The notes under the pieces were generated by a model. It was not told where the DNA came from. It searched no databases and was given only the letters and a program-made list of their open reading frames with translations. From IMG/VR virus record IMGVR_UViG_2623620491_000007: a stretch of DNA of 4,934 nucleotides; one strand, written 5' to 3'. This document shows positions 244 through 3,710 of this stretch, one piece after another. The position numbers were made by a program, and so were the translations under genes. This DNA is from a virus. Its lineage: Duplodnaviria; Heunggongvirae; Uroviricota; Caudoviricetes. The first letter of the stretch is position 1. Each line of letters starts with the position of its first letter.

Positions 244-660
244 ATGGCAAAAGTATTTACACCAGAAGAGCGGGAAAAAATTAAAGGGCAGGTTGTTGAA
301 CTTGTACGTCTGAGCGGTCGCGAGACGTTACGGGCACTGGAGGCTAAAACCGGTGCATCAAGGTATTACATAAGCACTCTCGCCAGAGAACTGGTCGCCA
401 GTGGTGATGTTTACAATTCAGGCTACGGATTATTCCCGTCTGAGCAGGCGCGTAAAGACTGGCAAAACGCCCGCAAAAAACTATCCAGGGCAAAGGCGAA
501 GAAACCGGTTGTGGTTGATCCGGACCTTATCTGGTCATTACCTGACGGAGAAATACGTCGCTACGATAGCCGTCTAAACATAATCTGTAGCGAGTGCCGG
601 AAGAGTGAAGTTATGAAACGTGTACTGGCATTTTATCAGGGAAATCTTCGGTATTTATAG
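244..660 (+). CDS. ren: Ren-like protein (lambda Ren family, exclusion-associated), 138 aa from ATG 244
   Basis: C-terminal ...ICSECRKSEVMKRVLAFYQG resembles the lambda Ren C-terminus (...FKECRQSAAMKRVLAVYG...) as I recall it. SD GGAGG at 234-238 lies 5 nt before ATG 244; the ORF-track start at 229 is a TTG with no SD. An HTH-like segment GRETLRALEAKTGASRYYISTLARELVASG is present. Position after a replication-type gene matches lambda P-ren order. Confidence 0.55.
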   Translation: MAKVFTPEEREKIKGQVVELVRLSGRETLRALEAKTGASRYYISTLARELVASGDVYNSGYGLFPSEQARKDWQNARKKLSRAKAKKPVVVDPDLIWSLPDGEIRRYDSRLNIICSECRKSEVMKRVLAFYQGNLRYL

Positions 661-736
661 ACGTTACTAGATCAAAGAGCATTAGTTCATACGTAAATTG
701 ACATTTTTCTGGCACAGGGGAGAGCTAGCGTGGTTG

Positions 737-771
737 TCCGCTTTGTGCCAGAAGCGGAAGTTGCTAAAATG
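737..771. repeat. Left copy of a palindrome-containing repeat: TCCGCTTT-N7-AAGCGGA, then 5 nt, then CTAAAATG
   Basis: TCCGCTT (737-743) is the reverse complement of AAGCGGA (752-758), giving a 7 bp stem with an 8 nt loop; CTAAAATG follows at 764-771. The same blocks recur at 2959-2988. No T-run on either strand, so not an intrinsic terminator. Confidence 0.5.
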
Positions 772-867
772 GTTTACCGTGTCCAAAGGAGTCAGGGGCA
801 ACAACGCGATATTGCTGACTGAGGTTTGGATCTAATCCTAGGACATGTCAGGAGCAATGCTAATCTA

Positions 868-896
868 TTCATTAAAGCAGAGTATATGCCTATAAT
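868..896 (+). promoter_or_regulatory. Candidate sigma70 promoter for the AT-rich cassette (-35 TTCATT 868-873, 17 bp spacer, -10 TATAAT 891-896)
   Basis: Perfect -10 hexamer TATAAT at 891-896 with a weak -35; it sits about 85 nt upstream of the SD and ATG of the first cassette gene. AT-rich context means other hexamers are possible; not tested. Confidence 0.3.
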
Positions 897-979
897 TTAG
901 AACCTTGCTATGGACATGAAAATGTGTAACATGCAATAGATCTCTACACACAGCAGGATTCCTACACCAAGGAGTGTTT

Positions 980-1381
980 ATGATTAACGAATCCAGTCCT
1001 TTCCCAGACAACGAAATTATATCCTTCTATGACTGTACTGGCATGCCCATTTTTTATCTACATAGTGATGGTGAAAGTTTTTATCACTATGACGGAACCC
1101 CACTAGCCTATTTATATAATAATGAATATATAGTTTCATATTCAGGTCAGTATTTAGGTTGGCTATATAATGGGAGTATTATAGATTATAAAAATGGGGC
1201 TTATGTTTTTTTTACAGCTTATAGTTCTGGTGGGCCATCGCGACCAAGCCGAAAGTTTCGACCAAGTCGATTATCAAGAAAGAGCAGACCTGCTAAATTA
1301 AGTCGTAATAGTCGACCGTCACGACCTTCAAGACAAACCAGATGGAGCGAGCGAAGCAACATGAGTTTTTTCAGTAGTTAA
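980..1381 (+). CDS. Hypothetical small protein (133 aa) with a Tyr/Gly-rich repeated N-terminal domain and a basic Ser/Arg/Pro-rich repetitive tail
   Basis: SD AAGGAG at 969-974 lies 5 nt before ATG 980 (the ORF-track start at 974 is a GTG inside the SD). N-terminal half shows repeated motifs (FYDCTG..IFYL, SFYHYDGTPLAYLY, EYIVSYSGQYLGWLY, IIDYKNGAYVFF); C-terminal tail is SRPSRKFRPSRLSRKSRPAKLSRNSRPSRPSRQTR. Very AT-rich. Confidence 0.65.
   Translation: MINESSPFPDNEIISFYDCTGMPIFYLHSDGESFYHYDGTPLAYLYNNEYIVSYSGQYLGWLYNGSIIDYKNGAYVFFTAYSSGGPSRPSRKFRPSRLSRKSRPAKLSRNSRPSRPSRQTRWSERSNMSFFSS
1236..1335 (+). repeat. Degenerate in-frame tandem repeats (about 18 bp units, e.g. CGACCAAG at 1241-1248 and 1259-1266) encoding the SRPSR-type peptide repeats
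   Basis: Direct reading: CGACCAAG recurs 18 bp apart, with further TCGACC/CGACC units at 1312-1326; this corresponds to the repeated S-R-P-S-R peptide units in the protein tail. Confidence 0.5.
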
Positions 1382-1459
1382 ATTCTCGTTGTATTAAAAA
1401 ATAGATTGATTTGAAAGTTAGCATATTTACCTACTATCAAATAATGAAAAGGGTTAAAG

Positions 1460-2875
1460 ATGAGTAATCTTCCTACTACAGTAAATACAACCGCAGTAAC
1501 CACTGGTGTTGATAATTTCACAACGTCATTAACTACTTACCTCACCGATTTGAATCTTCCGGCAAAGGGCGTTTTAGTCGGCAATGATCAGAGGTACACT
1601 GTAATTGATAACTTCCCAAAGGTTATTGGTGGTATTGACAGTGCAAGGCGTTCAGATTCGTTATATCTATCAAAGTTTATTGCAGCGTGCGGCGCTGGCC
1701 TTTTTGATGCAGCACTCAATTTTTTATGGAATGAAACAGTAGTAAATTTGAGATGGAAGGTTTCCCTTAACGATATAGACTATTTTTATGACAGTATTGT
1801 CACTGACACAAAAAGAAGAGATAAGCTTAAAACTGTAGATGATTTAGTTAATATAGAGGAGTGGGAGCTTGTTAAGGGTTGCCACTTAACGGGATTACTT
1901 TCGGATATAGGTTTTAAACATCTTGATTATATAAGAGATATGAGGAACTGGGCTAGTGCAGCACATCCTAACCAAAGTCAGCTAACAGGATTCATGCTCA
2001 TCTCATGGCTTGAAACCTGCATCAAAGAAGTGATTGCGAAAGAACCAGAACCTTCTGCATTACAAATAAAGAGAGTACTATCTAACATCAGAGGCGCTAA
2101 CTTAGAAGGCGATGACTTAGCCCATATAAAATCTGCGATGGAAAGCTTACCTCAAGATGTTGTTGATTCTTTCTTAAGAACTATATTTGGGATGTATACT
2201 AATGATAACGCGGCTGTACAGGTTAAGAATAATATAAAAGGAATTGCAAAAAAATGTTGGGATCTTTCGTCAGAAACTACGAAGTATAGTTGTGGTATAA
2301 GATATCAATCTTTTGCAGCTAACGGAGAGAGAGCTAGGAAAGATGCGGCTAATGAGTTTTTAACTACTGTATCTGGTCTTCCATATCTTCCATCAGACTC
2401 TTTGGCTGTTGAAATATCAATCAGAGTGACAAATTTATACCAGGCCCATTTTGGATGGAATAATTTCCATAATGAACCTGCTCATGCATCCTCTTTGGCA
2501 GCATATATCTCCTCTGCTGGGAATGTCCCTGACTCAGTTCGATTTGAATATGTTAAGACTATAGTTTTGTGTTATTTGGGCAACAGCTATGGAGTGTCTA
2601 ATATGGCCGTTTCTTACTATGAAGAAATGATTGGTAAGTTCGGCGAGGCAGAGTTAAAAGAGTTCGTAAAAATAATTTATGATAAAGACGTGATATCTAG
2701 GCTTGCAACTCAAACATGTGCTTCTCGATATAAACATATAGCATCCAATTTTGTTAGCAGAACTACCAATCAAATAACCTCGCAAGCTCTTAATGCGATC
2801 ATAGCATCGACTGCTCTCCAGTTACCGAACCTATCGAAAGCAACGGCCTACGATAAACTTATTCGCTCATACTAA
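1460..2875 (+). CDS. Hypothetical protein, 471 aa, no recognisable catalytic or NTP-binding motif; candidate effector of a phage-exclusion/defence cassette
   Basis: Long uninterrupted ORF in AT-rich DNA; SD-like AAAAGGG at 1447-1453 lies 6 nt before ATG 1460; stop TAA at 2873-2875 is followed by an intrinsic terminator. Thr-rich low-complexity N-terminus (residues about 5-27). One R-x6-H element (R162...H169, RNWASAAH, nt 1943-1966) is reminiscent of, but not diagnostic for, HEPN-type Rx4-6H motifs. No Walker A, no nucleotidyltransferase, RT, TIR or Sir2 signatures seen by eye. Confidence 0.8.
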   Translation: MSNLPTTVNTTAVTTGVDNFTTSLTTYLTDLNLPAKGVLVGNDQRYTVIDNFPKVIGGIDSARRSDSLYLSKFIAACGAGLFDAALNFLWNETVVNLRWKVSLNDIDYFYDSIVTDTKRRDKLKTVDDLVNIEEWELVKGCHLTGLLSDIGFKHLDYIRDMRNWASAAHPNQSQLTGFMLISWLETCIKEVIAKEPEPSALQIKRVLSNIRGANLEGDDLAHIKSAMESLPQDVVDSFLRTIFGMYTNDNAAVQVKNNIKGIAKKCWDLSSETTKYSCGIRYQSFAANGERARKDAANEFLTTVSGLPYLPSDSLAVEISIRVTNLYQAHFGWNNFHNEPAHASSLAAYISSAGNVPDSVRFEYVKTIVLCYLGNSYGVSNMAVSYYEEMIGKFGEAELKEFVKIIYDKDVISRLATQTCASRYKHIASNFVSRTTNQITSQALNAIIASTALQLPNLSKATAYDKLIRSY

Positions 2876-2911
2876 ATACTGTGAGGCAAAAACAGGCTTG
2901 GATCAGATAAC

Positions 2912-2938
2912 AGCCCTCTCTATTCGAGGGCTTTTTTG
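2912..2938 (+). terminator. Rho-independent terminator ending the AT-rich cassette
   Basis: Stem AGCCCTC (2912-2918), loop TCTATTC, stem GAGGGCT (2926-2932), then TTTTTTG; it lies 37 nt after the TAA of the 471-aa gene. Confidence 0.65.
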
Positions 2939-2958
2939 TAGGAATGCTTAATTGAATA

Positions 2959-2988
2959 TCCGCTTTTCGCTCAAAGCGGACTAAAATG
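2959..2988. repeat. Right copy of the palindrome-containing repeat: TCCGCTTT-N7-AAGCGGA directly followed by CTAAAATG
   Basis: TCCGCTTT (2959-2966) pairs with AAAGCGGA (2973-2980) around a 6 nt loop; CTAAAATG at 2981-2988. Blocks are identical to the left copy at 737-771 apart from the loop and a 5 nt insertion in the left copy. Confidence 0.5.
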
Positions 2989-3027
2989 TTGGCTTGTGTC
3001 TGACTTAGAGCATTTAAGGAAGTGCTG

Positions 3028-3246
3028 GTGGTGACTGGTTGTTGTGTTCCATTTCTACAGAACAAAATCACAGAAACTATACCCAATAGTTGTATTGAAT
3101 CACTGACGAGACAGCCTCATATTTATCAGGACTGGTGTGCGTCTAATACAGGAGGTTGTCGTGCTGGTTCTCAAATGTGCGCTGGCTATTGCGGCTGTAA
3201 TGGCAATTTATTGTCTTGCTATTGTTCTTATGGATCGCCTTTTTGA
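3028..3246 (+). CDS. Possible small cysteine-rich protein (about 72 aa, 14 Cys); coding status uncertain
   Basis: ORF-track frame 3022-3246. AAGGAAG at 3015-3021 is too close to GTG 3022, so GTG 3028 or 3031 is the more plausible start. C-terminal CAGYCGCNGNLLSCYCSYGSPF is Cys-dense. No homolog recalled; it fills the gap between the cassette terminator and the hok promoter. Confidence 0.2.
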   Translation: MVTGCCVPFLQNKITETIPNSCIESLTRQPHIYQDWCASNTGGCRAGSQMCAGYCGCNGNLLSCYCSYGSPF

Positions 3247-3257
3247 CTGATTTCATA

Positions 3258-3286
3258 TTGGCGAGGTAACGGGAGTTAAGTAGAAT
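3258..3286 (+). promoter_or_regulatory. Candidate promoter of the mok/hok mRNA (-35 TTGGCG 3258-3263, 17 bp spacer, -10 TAGAAT 3281-3286)
   Basis: Hexamers with canonical spacing; the predicted start near 3293 gives a leader of about 113 nt before mok and a transcript of about 420 nt to the terminator, in line with hok-family mRNAs. The predicted 5' end is complementary to a segment downstream of hok. Confidence 0.35.
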
Positions 3287-3405
3287 GCCTGCGGGTGCTT
3301 GGGGCTATCTGTCTCAGGCATGAACACCAAAAGGCAGATAGAGAAGAGCCCCAGTTAACATTACGCGTCCTGCAAGACGCTTAACATTAATCTGAGGCTC
3401 AATCT

Positions 3406-3618
3406 ATGAACGGCAAATCTAGGTTAGCCTCTTACGTGCCGAAAGGCAAGGAGAAGCAGGCTATGAAGCAGCAAAAGGCGATGTTAATCGCCCTGATCGT
3501 CATCTGTTTAACCGTCATAGTGACGGCGCTGGTAACGAGGAAAGACCTCTGCGAGGTACGAATCCGAACCGGCCAGACGGAGGTCGCTGTCTTCACAGCT
3601 TACGAATCTGAGGAGTAA
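3406..3618 (+). CDS. mok: Mok-like reading frame: in-frame N-terminal extension of hok whose translation enables hok translation (70 aa)
   Basis: ATG 3406 is preceded by GAGG at 3394-3397 (8 nt spacing) and runs in frame through hok to the same stop. This mirrors chromosomal mokC/hokC annotation, where both share a stop, as I recall it. Confidence 0.5.
   Translation: MNGKSRLASYVPKGKEKQAMKQQKAMLIALIVICLTVIVTALVTRKDLCEVRIRTGQTEVAVFTAYESEE
3463..3618 (+). CDS. hok: Hok/Gef-family type I toxin (small membrane-depolarising peptide), 51 aa
   Basis: Translation MKQQKAMLIALIVICLTVIVTALVTRKDLCEVRIRTGQTEVAVFTAYESEE matches the Hok/Gef/RelF family: hydrophobic transmembrane helix followed by the conserved TRKxLCE..R..G..EVAAF/VF..YE block. 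Closest to HokD/RelF and Gef from memory. SD AAGGAG at 3448-3453 lies 9 nt before ATG 3463; stop TAA 3616-3618. Confidence 0.85.
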   Translation: MKQQKAMLIALIVICLTVIVTALVTRKDLCEVRIRTGQTEVAVFTAYESEE

Positions 3619-3676
3619 GAGACCCGGCGGGGGAGAAATCCCTCGCCACCTCTGATGTGTCAGGCATTCTCAACGC

Positions 3677-3710
3677 ACCCGCATTTAACCCGTTTCGGCG
3701 GGTTTTTTGT
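3677..3710 (+). terminator. Rho-independent terminator of the hok transcript
   Basis: GC-rich hairpin (AACCCG 3687-3692, loop TTTCGG, CGGGTT 3699-3704; alternatively ACCCGC 3677-3682 with GCGGGT 3698-3703) running into TTTTTTGTT at 3703-3711. Confidence 0.55.

What the first reader, a model, noticed from the sequence alone, without database searches (positions are those of the whole stretch)
737..2988. Cassette is bracketed by two copies of the same palindromic element (737-771 and 2959-2988)
Both copies contain TCCGCTTT, a 6-8 nt variable loop, AAGCGGA and then CTAAAATG; the left copy has a 5 nt insertion before CTAAAATG. One lies about 240 bp upstream of the first cassette gene, the other about 20 bp downstream of the cassette terminator. 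Neither has a T-run, so they are not simple terminators. Such repeats flanking a compositionally foreign block suggest recombination boundaries for cassette exchange, or paired binding sites for a dimeric regulator. The left copy also overlaps an alternative 9 bp stem (708-716 with 745-753), so mutually exclusive structures are possible.
Basis: seen in the sequence. Interest (0 to 1): 0.6.

Follow-up and report, generated by a model that had tools for sequence, protein, structure and literature searches.

The report
Cassette-exchange recombination sites in prophages
The two small palindromes are the left and right junction sites of a widespread gene-cassette swapping system found in prophages, plasmids and chromosomes of enteric and related bacteria, and a tiny integrase-like gene found elsewhere next to the same kind of site is a candidate for the enzyme that does the swapping.

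Summary
Both palindromes are real (737-758, 2959-2980; 0 expected by chance). They are two classes of one 8-6-8 site. L is TCCGCTTT-GTGCCA-nnAGCGGA. R is TCCGCTnn-TCGCTC-AAAGCGGA. The shared CTAAAATG is not part of the element.

In about 330 related loci, homology between different cargos stops at these sites. The outer arm and spacer stay with the replicon. The inner arm travels with the cargo. Behind the lygF-side L site I found 21 different cassettes, and 25 in front of the hok-side R site. Tandem cassettes are joined as R-(16-20 nt)-L. No empty site exists in 5426 E. coli genomes.

The window's own cassette recurs at 94% identity in a P2-like phage, with breakpoints in the two spacers. Phage P2's fun(Z) gene is bracketed by the same L and R sites. 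Inverted repeats around fun were proposed as site-specific recombination sites in 2004.

The arms do not covary, which argues against a selected hairpin structure.

A 200-aa tyrosine recombinase is followed by an L-type half-site in all 11 contexts read, making it a candidate enzyme. It is conserved across Gammaproteobacteria and present in 919 of 5426 E. coli genomes.

Verdict: recombination boundaries for cassette exchange. This is a new member of a sparsely described kind.

The parts
737..758 (+). L-type site: outer (replicon-side) arm 737-744 TCCGCTTT, spacer 745-750 GTGCCA, inner (cassette-side) arm 751-758 GAAGCGGA
   Evidence: The same 5' flank, arm and spacer are followed by 21 different cassettes. 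Homology to the P2-like copy of the cassette starts at 745.
2959..2980 (+). R-type site: inner (cassette-side) arm 2959-2966 TCCGCTTT, spacer 2967-2972 TCGCTC, outer (replicon-side) arm 2973-2980 AAAGCGGA
   Evidence: Many E. coli matches to the right flank start exactly at 2959. 25 different cassette ends precede the constant spacer, arm and flank.
751..2966 (+). The exchangeable cassette, inner arm to inner arm: leader with inner motif AGTTGCTAAAATGG (759-772), Bflower gene 980-1381, 471-aa gene 1460-2875 (phrog_27609, function unknown), intrinsic terminator 2912-2937
   Evidence: 94% identical over window 745-2981 in a P2-like phage contig with different outer arms (L346). Present in only 2 of 5426 E. 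coli genomes.
661..750 (+). Conserved left backbone block after lygF. It contains TGGCACAGGG (710-719), an inverted copy of the CCCTGTGCCA junction seen in integrase-proximal sites, and it forms the alternative stem 708-716/745-753
   Evidence: Phage P2 has an 11-bp perfect version: TGGCACAGAGT-N19-ACTCTGTGCCA.
2967..3260 (+). Conserved right backbone block, including a 28-aa hydrophobic ORF (3161-3246, with an AGGAGG ribosome-binding site) just upstream of the hok promoter
244..660 (+). lygF/ydaW (DUF977), left anchor gene of the hotspot
3293..3618 (+). hok/mok/sok type I toxin-antitoxin locus, right anchor of the hotspot

Best explanation
The two palindromes are the left (L) and right (R) recombination sites of a cassette-exchange system.

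Each site is double-stranded DNA with two 8-9 bp inverted arms, (G)TCCGCTTT and AAAGCGGA(C), around a 6-bp asymmetric centre. The centre is GTGCCA in all L sites and TCGCTC in all R sites. The arm facing the replicon and the centre stay with the replicon. The arm facing the cargo travels with the cargo. The crossover therefore lies in or at the edge of the centre.

L and R centres differ, so L should recombine only with L and R only with R. That would allow the DNA between them to be swapped between two replicons, or a circle [L-cargo-R-spacer] to be added to an array, without loss of the resident cassette. This is a natural counterpart of recombinase-mediated cassette exchange with heterospecific sites.

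Here the sites sit in the lygF-hok hotspot of a Rac-like prophage and hold a two-gene cassette of unknown function.

What is shown: the boundaries, the hybrid arms, the array grammar and the mobility of this cassette.

What is inferred: the reaction is site-specific. It is catalysed in trans by a 200-aa, catalytic-domain-only tyrosine recombinase, whose gene is always followed by an L-type half-site acting as a primary (attI-like) site.
For: (1) Boundaries. Between loci with different cargo, homology ends at the 3' end of the L site and resumes at the first base of the R site. E. coli matches to the right flank start at window 2959, and matches to the left flank end at 753/758.

(2) Different cargo. 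21 distinct cassettes follow the lygF-side L site and 25 precede the hok-side R site. Across all loci there are 206 distinct cassette left ends and 264 distinct right ends.

(3) The inner arm goes with the cargo. The same cassette start keeps its own arm behind different left contexts.

(4) Reciprocal hybrids. In L012-type prophages the outer site is TCCGC..GCAGA and the internal site is TCTGC..GCGGA, while both parental forms exist elsewhere.

(5) Grammar. L-to-R far apart occurs 179 times and R-to-L adjacent 85 times, with start-to-start spacing of 38-42 nt. L-to-R adjacent occurs 0 times. All sites in a locus share one orientation.

(6) This cassette moved. It is 94% identical over window 745-2981 in a P2-like phage next to ogr, with unrelated outer arms.

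(7) P2 fun(Z) is bracketed by an L site (15336) and an R site (17433). In 1773 genomes that match either flank of that P2 junction, the flanks break exactly at the spacer edges.

(8) No covariation between the arms: 83.1% paired vs 83.7% in shuffles. The palindrome is conserved as sequence, as expected for a protein-bound inverted repeat.

(9) Candidate enzyme. It is a 200-aa PF00589 protein, 77-95% identical across Gammaproteobacteria. In 11 of 11 distinct contexts its stop codon is followed 29-30 nt later by GTGCCA + nnAGCGGAC, fused to the hairpin CAGGGCTG-N4-CAGCCCTG, with different cassettes behind it. The gene is in 919 of 5426 E. coli genomes and sometimes lies inside this very hotspot (L011).

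(10) Prior proposal of site-specific recombination at inverted repeats flanking fun: Nilsson et al. 2004, as summarised in PMC8987985.
Against: No recombination has been demonstrated. All evidence is comparative.

The recombinase gene is not in the window, and most loci that carry the sites lack it nearby. It appears in only a few of the 120 species-level loci.

Short-homology recombination by phage RecET or Red, using the identical 14-22 bp, would give the same breakpoints.

The R class was collected with an exact 3' pattern, so its constant half is partly an ascertainment effect.

The platform-side L sites have a competing upstream stem (708-716 here, 11 bp in P2). That hints at a folded single-strand substrate, which the double-stranded model does not explain.

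I could not read the 2004 paper to confirm that its repeats are these.
Confidence: 0.68

Rival explanations
1. The palindromes are conserved linker sequences with some other primary role. Cargo is swapped by general or phage-encoded homologous or short-homology recombination (RecA, RecET, Red) that uses the 14-22 identical bases, as proposed for the promoter/stem-loop (PeSL) cassettes of T4-type phages and for relaxed recombination by Rad52-like recombinases.
For: Rac-like and lambdoid phages encode RecET/Red-type recombinases, which tolerate short or diverged homology (PMC3945230, listed). PeSL elements mediate modular shuffling in T4-type phages (PMC2839356). Most loci with the sites have no dedicated recombinase nearby. 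The breakpoints coincide with the edges of the identical sequence, as homology-driven exchange would also give.
Against: It does not explain why cassettes of unrelated content all carry the inner arm and the C-r-TT motif in inverted orientation at both ends. It does not explain why two distinct centres are conserved from Idiomarina to E. coli. It does not explain why a tyrosine recombinase gene is followed by an L-type half-site in 11 of 11 contexts, or the fixed R-(16-20 nt)-L junction. No other primary role was found: no T-run, no promoter, no Rfam family, no covariation.
Confidence: 0.17
2. The sites work as folded single strands, like integron attC sites. The composite R-spacer-L, or the platform-side hairpin plus GTGCCA, folds into an imperfect stem, and one strand is exchanged and then resolved by replication.
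For: The composite has the attC layout: box8-spacer6-box8, a variable 16-20 nt centre, then box8-spacer6-box8. L sites on the platform side always have a complementary partner for their 5' arm just upstream (attI-like hairpin, P2 11-bp stem, window 708-716). The single-strand folds are more stable than shuffled sequence, with z about -3.3 to -3.9.
Against: The stem of the individual 22-mers shows no covariation. The recombinase lacks the IntI-specific insertion and scores far below the integron-integrase cut-offs (17.6 vs 435 bits). There are no RYYYAAC/GTTRRRY cores. Cassettes contain genes in both orientations with their own terminators.
Confidence: 0.1
3. The palindromes are operators for a dimeric regulator, or RNA hairpins (terminator, processing or stabilising elements) that insulate the cargo from phage transcription.
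For: The 8-6-8 inverted repeat is the right shape for a dimeric DNA-binding protein. The sites lie at gene boundaries. The hairpins are moderately stable (-6.7 and -7.5 kcal/mol).
Against: There is no T-run, and the cassette has its own terminator 20 nt upstream of R. The array orientation relative to neighbouring phage genes is flipped in Citrobacter-type prophages. There is no covariation. The sites occur in chromosomes and plasmids between ordinary metabolic genes in about 115 Enterobacterales species. No regulator gene co-occurs with them. None of this explains the breakpoints.
Confidence: 0.04

Closest known systems
Inverted repeats flanking the Z/fun insert of P2-like coliphages (Nilsson, Karlsson & Haggard-Ljungquist 2004, Mol Biol Evol 21:1; known to me only through PMC8987985)
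   Same: Phage P2 carries the same L and R sites around fun(Z). The 2004 work proposed site-specific recombination at repeats flanking fun, in phages and in bacterial genomes.
   Different: The window's instance is in a different phage family (Rac-like lambdoid) and a different hotspot (lygF-hok). I found no published text that prints these motifs or links them to a recombinase, and searches for integron-like or attC-like cassette systems returned nothing that describes this one. I could not read the 2004 paper itself.
Integrons (IntI, attI, attC cassette arrays)
   Same: A tyrosine recombinase gene lies next to a primary site and is followed by cassettes. A bipartite imperfect-palindrome site lies between cassettes. 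Part of each junction site belongs to the downstream cassette.
   Different: The recombinase is 200 aa with no IntI insertion and is far below the integron-integrase cut-offs. The sites have no RYYYAAC/GTTRRRY cores. There are two heterospecific site classes. Cassettes are multi-gene, in either orientation, with their own signals. Most arrays have no recombinase nearby.
pdif modules of Acinetobacter plasmids, and the XerC-like/dif-like system of Tn6022 (PMC11014353)
   Same: Discrete modules are bounded by inversely oriented arm-6 bp-arm tyrosine-recombinase sites, and the modules are shuffled between replicons. In Tn6022 a mobile-element-encoded small recombinase is followed by its own site.
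   Different: The arms bear no resemblance to the XerC/XerD arms of dif (from my own knowledge of the dif sequence). Both arms of one site are alike, which suggests a homodimer. Neighbouring cassettes are separated by a pair of sites (R-spacer-L), not by one shared site.
Engineered recombinase-mediated cassette exchange with heterospecific lox/FRT sites
   Same: Two incompatible spacer variants flank the cargo, which would allow swapping without deletion.
   Different: This is a natural system. Incompatibility of the L and R spacers is inferred, not tested.
PeSL mobile regulatory cassettes of T4-type phages (PMC2839356)
   Same: Short conserved stem-loop-containing repeats bracket variable genes in phage hyperplastic regions.
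   Different: PeSLs are a promoter plus a terminator and act through homologous recombination. Here no promoter or T-run is present, and a dedicated recombinase is implicated.

Membership tests
P2 Z/fun-type flanking inverted repeats (Nilsson 2004) | Inverted repeats bracket a variable, horizontally acquired insert at a fixed position in a temperate phage | tested here: met
   The window has L at 737 and R at 2959 around an AT-rich cassette. P2 has L at 15336 and R at 17433 around fun(Z).
P2 Z/fun-type flanking inverted repeats (Nilsson 2004) | The sequence is identical to the repeats defined in that paper | not testable with these tools
   The paper is not held. Only a one-sentence summary in PMC8987985 was available.
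Integron | IntI-type integrase (about 320 aa, with the IntI-specific insertion) | tested here: not met
   The protein is 200 aa. NCBIfam integron-integrase models score 17.6 and 17.2 bits against cut-offs of 435 and 265.
Integron | attC sites with RYYYAAC ... GTTRRRY cores and crossover at G|TT | tested here: not met
   The arms are TCCGCT/AGCGGA. The breakpoints lie at the 6-nt centres, 9-10 nt before the only GTTG-like motif.
Integron | A recombinase gene adjacent to a primary site, followed by an array of cassettes separated by recombination sites | tested here: met
   11 of 11 contexts have the attI-like half-site 29-30 nt after the stop codon. Arrays lie downstream in Pantoea L344 and Idiomarina L337.
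XerCD dif/pdif sites | An 11-6-11 site with XerC and XerD arms resembling GGTGCGCATAA / TTATGTTAAAT | tested here: not met
   By inspection of the site consensus against the dif sequence recalled from my own knowledge. No formal alignment was run.
REP/BIME/REPIN dispersed repeats | Many copies dispersed genome-wide in either orientation | tested here: not met
   In E. coli the median is 1 place per genome and the maximum 3. In the prophage loci read, nearly all lie at the lygF-hok hotspot. All sites in a locus share one orientation.
Intrinsic terminator | A GC-rich stem followed by a T-run | tested here: not met
   The scan lists 2912-2937 as a terminator but neither palindrome.
Structured RNA element | Compensatory changes that keep the stem, or an Rfam match | tested here: not met
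   83.1% paired vs 83.7% in shuffles. No Rfam hit at either site or in the arrays.
Shufflon sfx sites (Rci) | A GTGCCAA spacer followed by the conserved arm TCCGGTnnnTGG | tested here: not met
   The spacer is similar, but the arm lies on the other side and in the opposite orientation. The comparison uses the sfx sequence recalled from my own knowledge and the site consensus.

The most novel reading that the evidence does not exclude
The L and R sites, the R-spacer-L junctions and the 200-aa tyrosine recombinase with its attI-like half-site form one previously unrecognised, integron-like but mechanistically distinct cassette system, with two heterospecific sites and exchange rather than insertion. 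On this reading it supplies the cargo of classic phage defence hotspots (P2 Z/fun, the Rac lygF-hok hotspot) and of cassette arrays in chromosomes, plasmids, ICEs and genomic islands across Gammaproteobacteria. That would answer how phage hotspots turn over their cargo.
Probability: 0.45. Interest if true: 0.88.

Novelty: new member of a known kind. Interest (0 to 1): 0.74.

Why it matters
How cargo, often anti-phage defence genes, is exchanged so precisely at prophage hotspots is an acknowledged open question. Rousset et al. 2022 could only speculate about cos-end recombination.

These sites give a concrete and testable answer. They define the 22-bp junctions, predict which pairs recombine, and come with a named candidate enzyme that is present in 17% of complete E. 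coli genomes. The same sites link P2-like and lambdoid phages, plasmids, ICEs, genomic islands and chromosomal arrays in about 115 Enterobacterales species. They therefore describe a shared cassette pool that moves accessory genes, including a polymyxin-resistance-like eptA module in Idiomarina, between very different replicons.

The sites could also be used directly as search anchors for new defence systems, and possibly as a compact natural tool for cassette exchange.

Tried and rejected
- **Terminator or promoter.** The consensus scan found neither at the palindromes. The TTGACA at 698 has no usable -10. The TGGCAC...GC motif has sigma-54-like letters, but the spacing is off by one (inspection).
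- **Structured RNA.** No Rfam hit and no covariation.
- **REP-like dispersal.** Rejected.
- **Empty site.** Not found with a synthetic junction query in E. coli (the closest, L093, still has about 230 nt and a degenerate arm). Not found with the gapped pattern in IMG/VR. Not found for the P2 G-FI junction.
- **Defence annotation of the cargo.** PADLOC gave none. Pfam found only Bflower. PHROGs gave phrog_27609, function unknown.
- **A recombinase next to the arrays.** Clustering ORFs from the 120 species loci gave mostly LysR, SDR, AKR and MFS families and no common recombinase. The small integrase turned up only as a minor cluster.
- **Similarity to XerCD dif, Hin/Gin sites or Rci sfx.** Considered from memory and rejected.
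- **IS200/IS605-type hairpin ends.** Rejected because the breakpoints lie inside the palindromes, not at a distance from them.
- **Literature searches.** The motifs, lygF and integron-like systems gave nothing relevant. The 2004 and 2006 P2 papers are not held.
Full report
**1. The observation**

The window is part of a Rac-like lambdoid prophage. In order it holds:
- the end of a DUF1627 gene (10-228);
- lygF/ydaW, a DUF977 gene (244-660);
- an AT-rich two-gene block;
- a short conserved stretch with a 28-aa ORF;
- hok/mok/sok;
- rem;
- a DUF1367 gene.

The pattern TCCGCTT-N6-10-AAGCGGA matches exactly twice, at 737-758 and 2959-2980. Shuffles give 0.00 expected matches. The block between the two sites has GC 0.33-0.41, against about 0.50-0.54 outside. 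It carries a Bflower-domain gene, a 471-aa gene with no Pfam or PADLOC match, and its own intrinsic terminator at 2912-2937. The palindromes and their positions are therefore confirmed.

**2. Where the cargo boundaries lie**

4853 of 5426 complete E. coli genomes match some part of the window. Only two carry this cassette. In ten loci fetched first, most prophages break homology at window 649 and resume at about 3265-3293, so those prophages use a different junction.

A large sub-family does share the 98 nt after lygF up to the left palindrome, and the 300 nt from the right palindrome to hok. The left segment is in 2251 genomes and the right segment in 1709. Many right-flank matches start exactly at 2959, and left-flank matches end at 753 or 758.

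In 80 IMG/VR loci found through DUF977, the palindromes occur only between lygF and hok, always in one orientation, and nowhere else in up to 16 kb. An all-against-all comparison of the cargo regions shows the same thing. Homology between different-cargo loci ends at the 3' end of the left site and resumes at the first base of the right site.

**3. Two site classes, and who owns which half**

The sites fall into two classes.

| Class | Layout | Constant part | Variable part |
|---|---|---|---|
| L | TCCGCTTT . GTGCCA . nnAGCGGA | 5' flank, 5' arm and centre | 3' arm and everything downstream |
| R | TCCGCTnn . TCGCTC . AAAGCGGA | centre, 3' arm and 3' flank | 5' arm and everything upstream |

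The variable arm goes with the cargo. The same cassette start keeps the same arm behind different left contexts. Both cassette ends carry the consensus rrAGCGGA-C-r-TT in inverted orientation.

A reciprocal signature is visible. In L012-type prophages the outer L is TCCGC..GCAGA and the internal L is TCTGC..GCGGA, while the two parental forms, TCCGC..GCGGA and TCTGC..GCAGA, exist elsewhere.

I counted 21 different cassettes behind the lygF-side L site and 25 in front of the hok-side R site.

On the left it is the cassette's own inner motif. On the right it is a backbone variant of CTAGAAGG.

**4. Arrays and grammar**

When there are several cassettes, they are joined as R-(16-20 nt)-L. The start-to-start spacing is 42 nt in 51 cases, 40 in 16, 39 in 9 and 38 in 5, and there are 81 distinct junction sequences. 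Over 592 sites the transitions are:

| Transition | Count |
|---|---|
| L to R, far apart | 179 |
| R to L, adjacent | 85 |
| L to R, adjacent | 0 |

The median cassette is 1.6 kb, with a range of 0.2-7.1 kb. One cassette (BCCT transporter plus DUF2254) ends exactly at the 3' edge of an internal L site and is followed by four different second cassettes.

No empty site exists. A synthetic L/R junction found none in 5426 E. coli genomes. A gapped pattern found none in IMG/VR. The equivalent query for phage P2 found none among 1773 genomes that match either flank of the junction, and there the flanks break exactly at the spacer edges.

**5. Range**

An exact scan for the R centre plus arm in IMG/VR gave more than 25 different right flanks, including Citrobacter- and Klebsiella-type lambdoid prophages. 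In those prophages the array is flipped relative to rem/ydfU.

In those genomes the sites form same-orientation arrays in chromosomes and plasmids. They lie between ordinary accessory genes: LysR regulators in 33 loci, then SDR, AKR, MFS and GNAT families.

**6. What the palindrome is not**

- It is not a terminator or a promoter.
- It matches no Rfam family.
- It is not REP-like in E. coli, where there are 1-3 places per genome.
- Across 48 distinct L sites the two arms vary independently: 83.1% paired against 83.7% in shuffles, so there is no excess of compensatory change.

The symmetry is therefore conserved as sequence rather than as a selected stem. That is what a protein-bound inverted repeat of the 8-6-8 (or 9-6-9) kind looks like, and it is the typical layout of a tyrosine-recombinase core site. 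Conservation of the two centres across genera is then explained by the need for partner sites to share the overlap sequence.

**7. A candidate enzyme**

A minor ORF cluster in the arrays is a 200-aa tyrosine recombinase. It matches PF00589 only, has no core-binding domain, and reaches no NCBIfam cut-off. More than 8000 homologues exist, 77-95% identical from E. coli to Providencia, Pantoea, Idiomarina and Cycloclasticus.

I read 11 distinct contexts: E. coli prophages, Erwinia, Providencia islands next to ssrA, an Idiomarina chromosome, a Cycloclasticus-type ICE, and Pantoea. In every one the stop codon is followed 29-30 nt later by a hairpin, CAGGGCTG-N4-CAGCCCTG, fused to GTGCCA and a cassette-type arm nnAGCGGAC, with different cargo behind it. 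This looks like a primary (attI-like) site. Pantoea and Idiomarina have R or R-spacer-L sites downstream.

The gene is in 919 of 5426 E. coli genomes and on plasmids. In some Rac-like prophages it lies inside this very hotspot (L011).

**8. This cassette moves**

The Bflower plus 471-aa cassette recurs at 94% identity in a P2-like phage contig next to gpD/ogr. Homology covers only window 745-2981, and the outer arms there are unrelated: CCTGCAAA.GTGCCA on the left and TCGCTC.GTTGCGGA on the right. Phage P2 itself has an L site after gene G and an R site before the F operon, and the two bracket fun(Z).

**9. Mechanism**

The best-supported reading is site-specific exchange. L recombines with L and R with R, with the crossover in the centre.
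- A double event swaps cassettes between replicons.
- A single L x L event with a circle [L-cargo-R-spacer] adds a cassette and creates the R-spacer-L junction.
- The differing centres protect the resident cassette from deletion.

Shown: the boundaries, hybrid arms, grammar and mobility. Inferred: that catalysis is by the small recombinase, that the L and R centres are incompatible, and that the substrate is double-stranded.

One thing remains unexplained. Platform-side L sites always have a complement to their 5' arm and centre just upstream: window 708-716, an 11-bp perfect repeat in P2, and the hairpin after the integrase gene. This could mean a folded single-strand substrate, as in integrons.

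The main rival is short-homology recombination by RecET, Red or RecA at conserved linkers. It gives the same breakpoints, but it does not explain the cassette-borne inverted arms, the two conserved centres or the recombinase-site linkage.

**10. Comparison with what is known, and novelty**

[quoted passage not shown] 2004. I could not read that paper. The kind of element is therefore known for P2, and the window's instance in a lambdoid hotspot is a new member.

I found no text that prints these motifs or links them to a recombinase, and searches for integron-like or attC-like cassette systems returned nothing that describes this one. Rousset et al. 2022 treat the exchange mechanism at phage hotspots as open.

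The system works like an integron or like pdif modules, but it fails their defining tests. It has no IntI-type integrase, no attC cores and no Xer arms.

Noticed in passing
window 3161-3246: A 28-aa hydrophobic ORF (MLVLKCALAIAAVMAIYCLAIVLMDRLF, GTG start, AGGAGG 5 nt upstream) sits between the R site and the hok promoter. It is 93-96% conserved wherever the R site adjoins hok. It could be a small membrane peptide or toxin. It has no PHROG match.
   Followed up: partly
window 980-2875: The cargo is a two-gene operon: a 4-fold beta-flower protein (PF21784) plus a 471-aa protein (phrog_27609, no Pfam or PADLOC hit). It is found in only 2 of 5426 E. coli genomes and also in a P2-like phage. A 66%-identical homologue lies in the opposite orientation relative to the sites (L347/L348). 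It is a candidate anti-phage system of unknown type.
   Followed up: partly
window 708-722; L349 (phage P2) 15309-15349: Upstream of platform-side L sites lies an inverted copy of the junction (TGGCACAGGG here). In P2 it is an 11-bp perfect inverted repeat, TGGCACAGAGT-N19-ACTCTGTGCCA, which overlaps the L site's 5' arm and competes with the 22-bp palindrome.
   Followed up: partly
window 3627-3708: A weak match to the isrK Hfq-binding sRNA family (26.6 bits, below the gathering score of 50, E=0.008) lies just downstream of hok and overlaps a terminator-like hairpin.
   Followed up: no
L012 1129-7890 (E. coli GN4741) and relatives: Some Rac-like prophages carry chromosome-type metabolic cargo between the sites: a BCCT transporter, DUF2254, a LysR regulator, gamma-glutamylcyclotransferase and an MFS transporter. 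This suggests the phage hotspot draws on the same cassette pool as the chromosomal arrays.
   Followed up: partly
L337 10632-17533 (Idiomarina sp. X4): The cassette directly behind the small recombinase carries a PhoQ/PhoP-like two-component pair, an EptA-type phosphoethanolamine transferase, PAP2, DAGK and a sulfatase. This is a polymyxin-resistance-like module bounded by an attI-like L site and an R site.
   Followed up: no
L001 3959-3980 (E. coli PF9285): The only other E. coli copies of this cassette have a point mutation in the R outer arm (AAAGAGGA). Downstream they lack hok and carry a TehB-family gene instead.
   Followed up: no
L003-L010 (E. coli loci): A second, more common version of the lygF-hok hotspot has no palindromes. 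There lygF overlaps the next gene (GTGA), and homology to the window stops at 649 and resumes at 3265-3293. The same hotspot is therefore served by at least two different junction types.
   Followed up: partly
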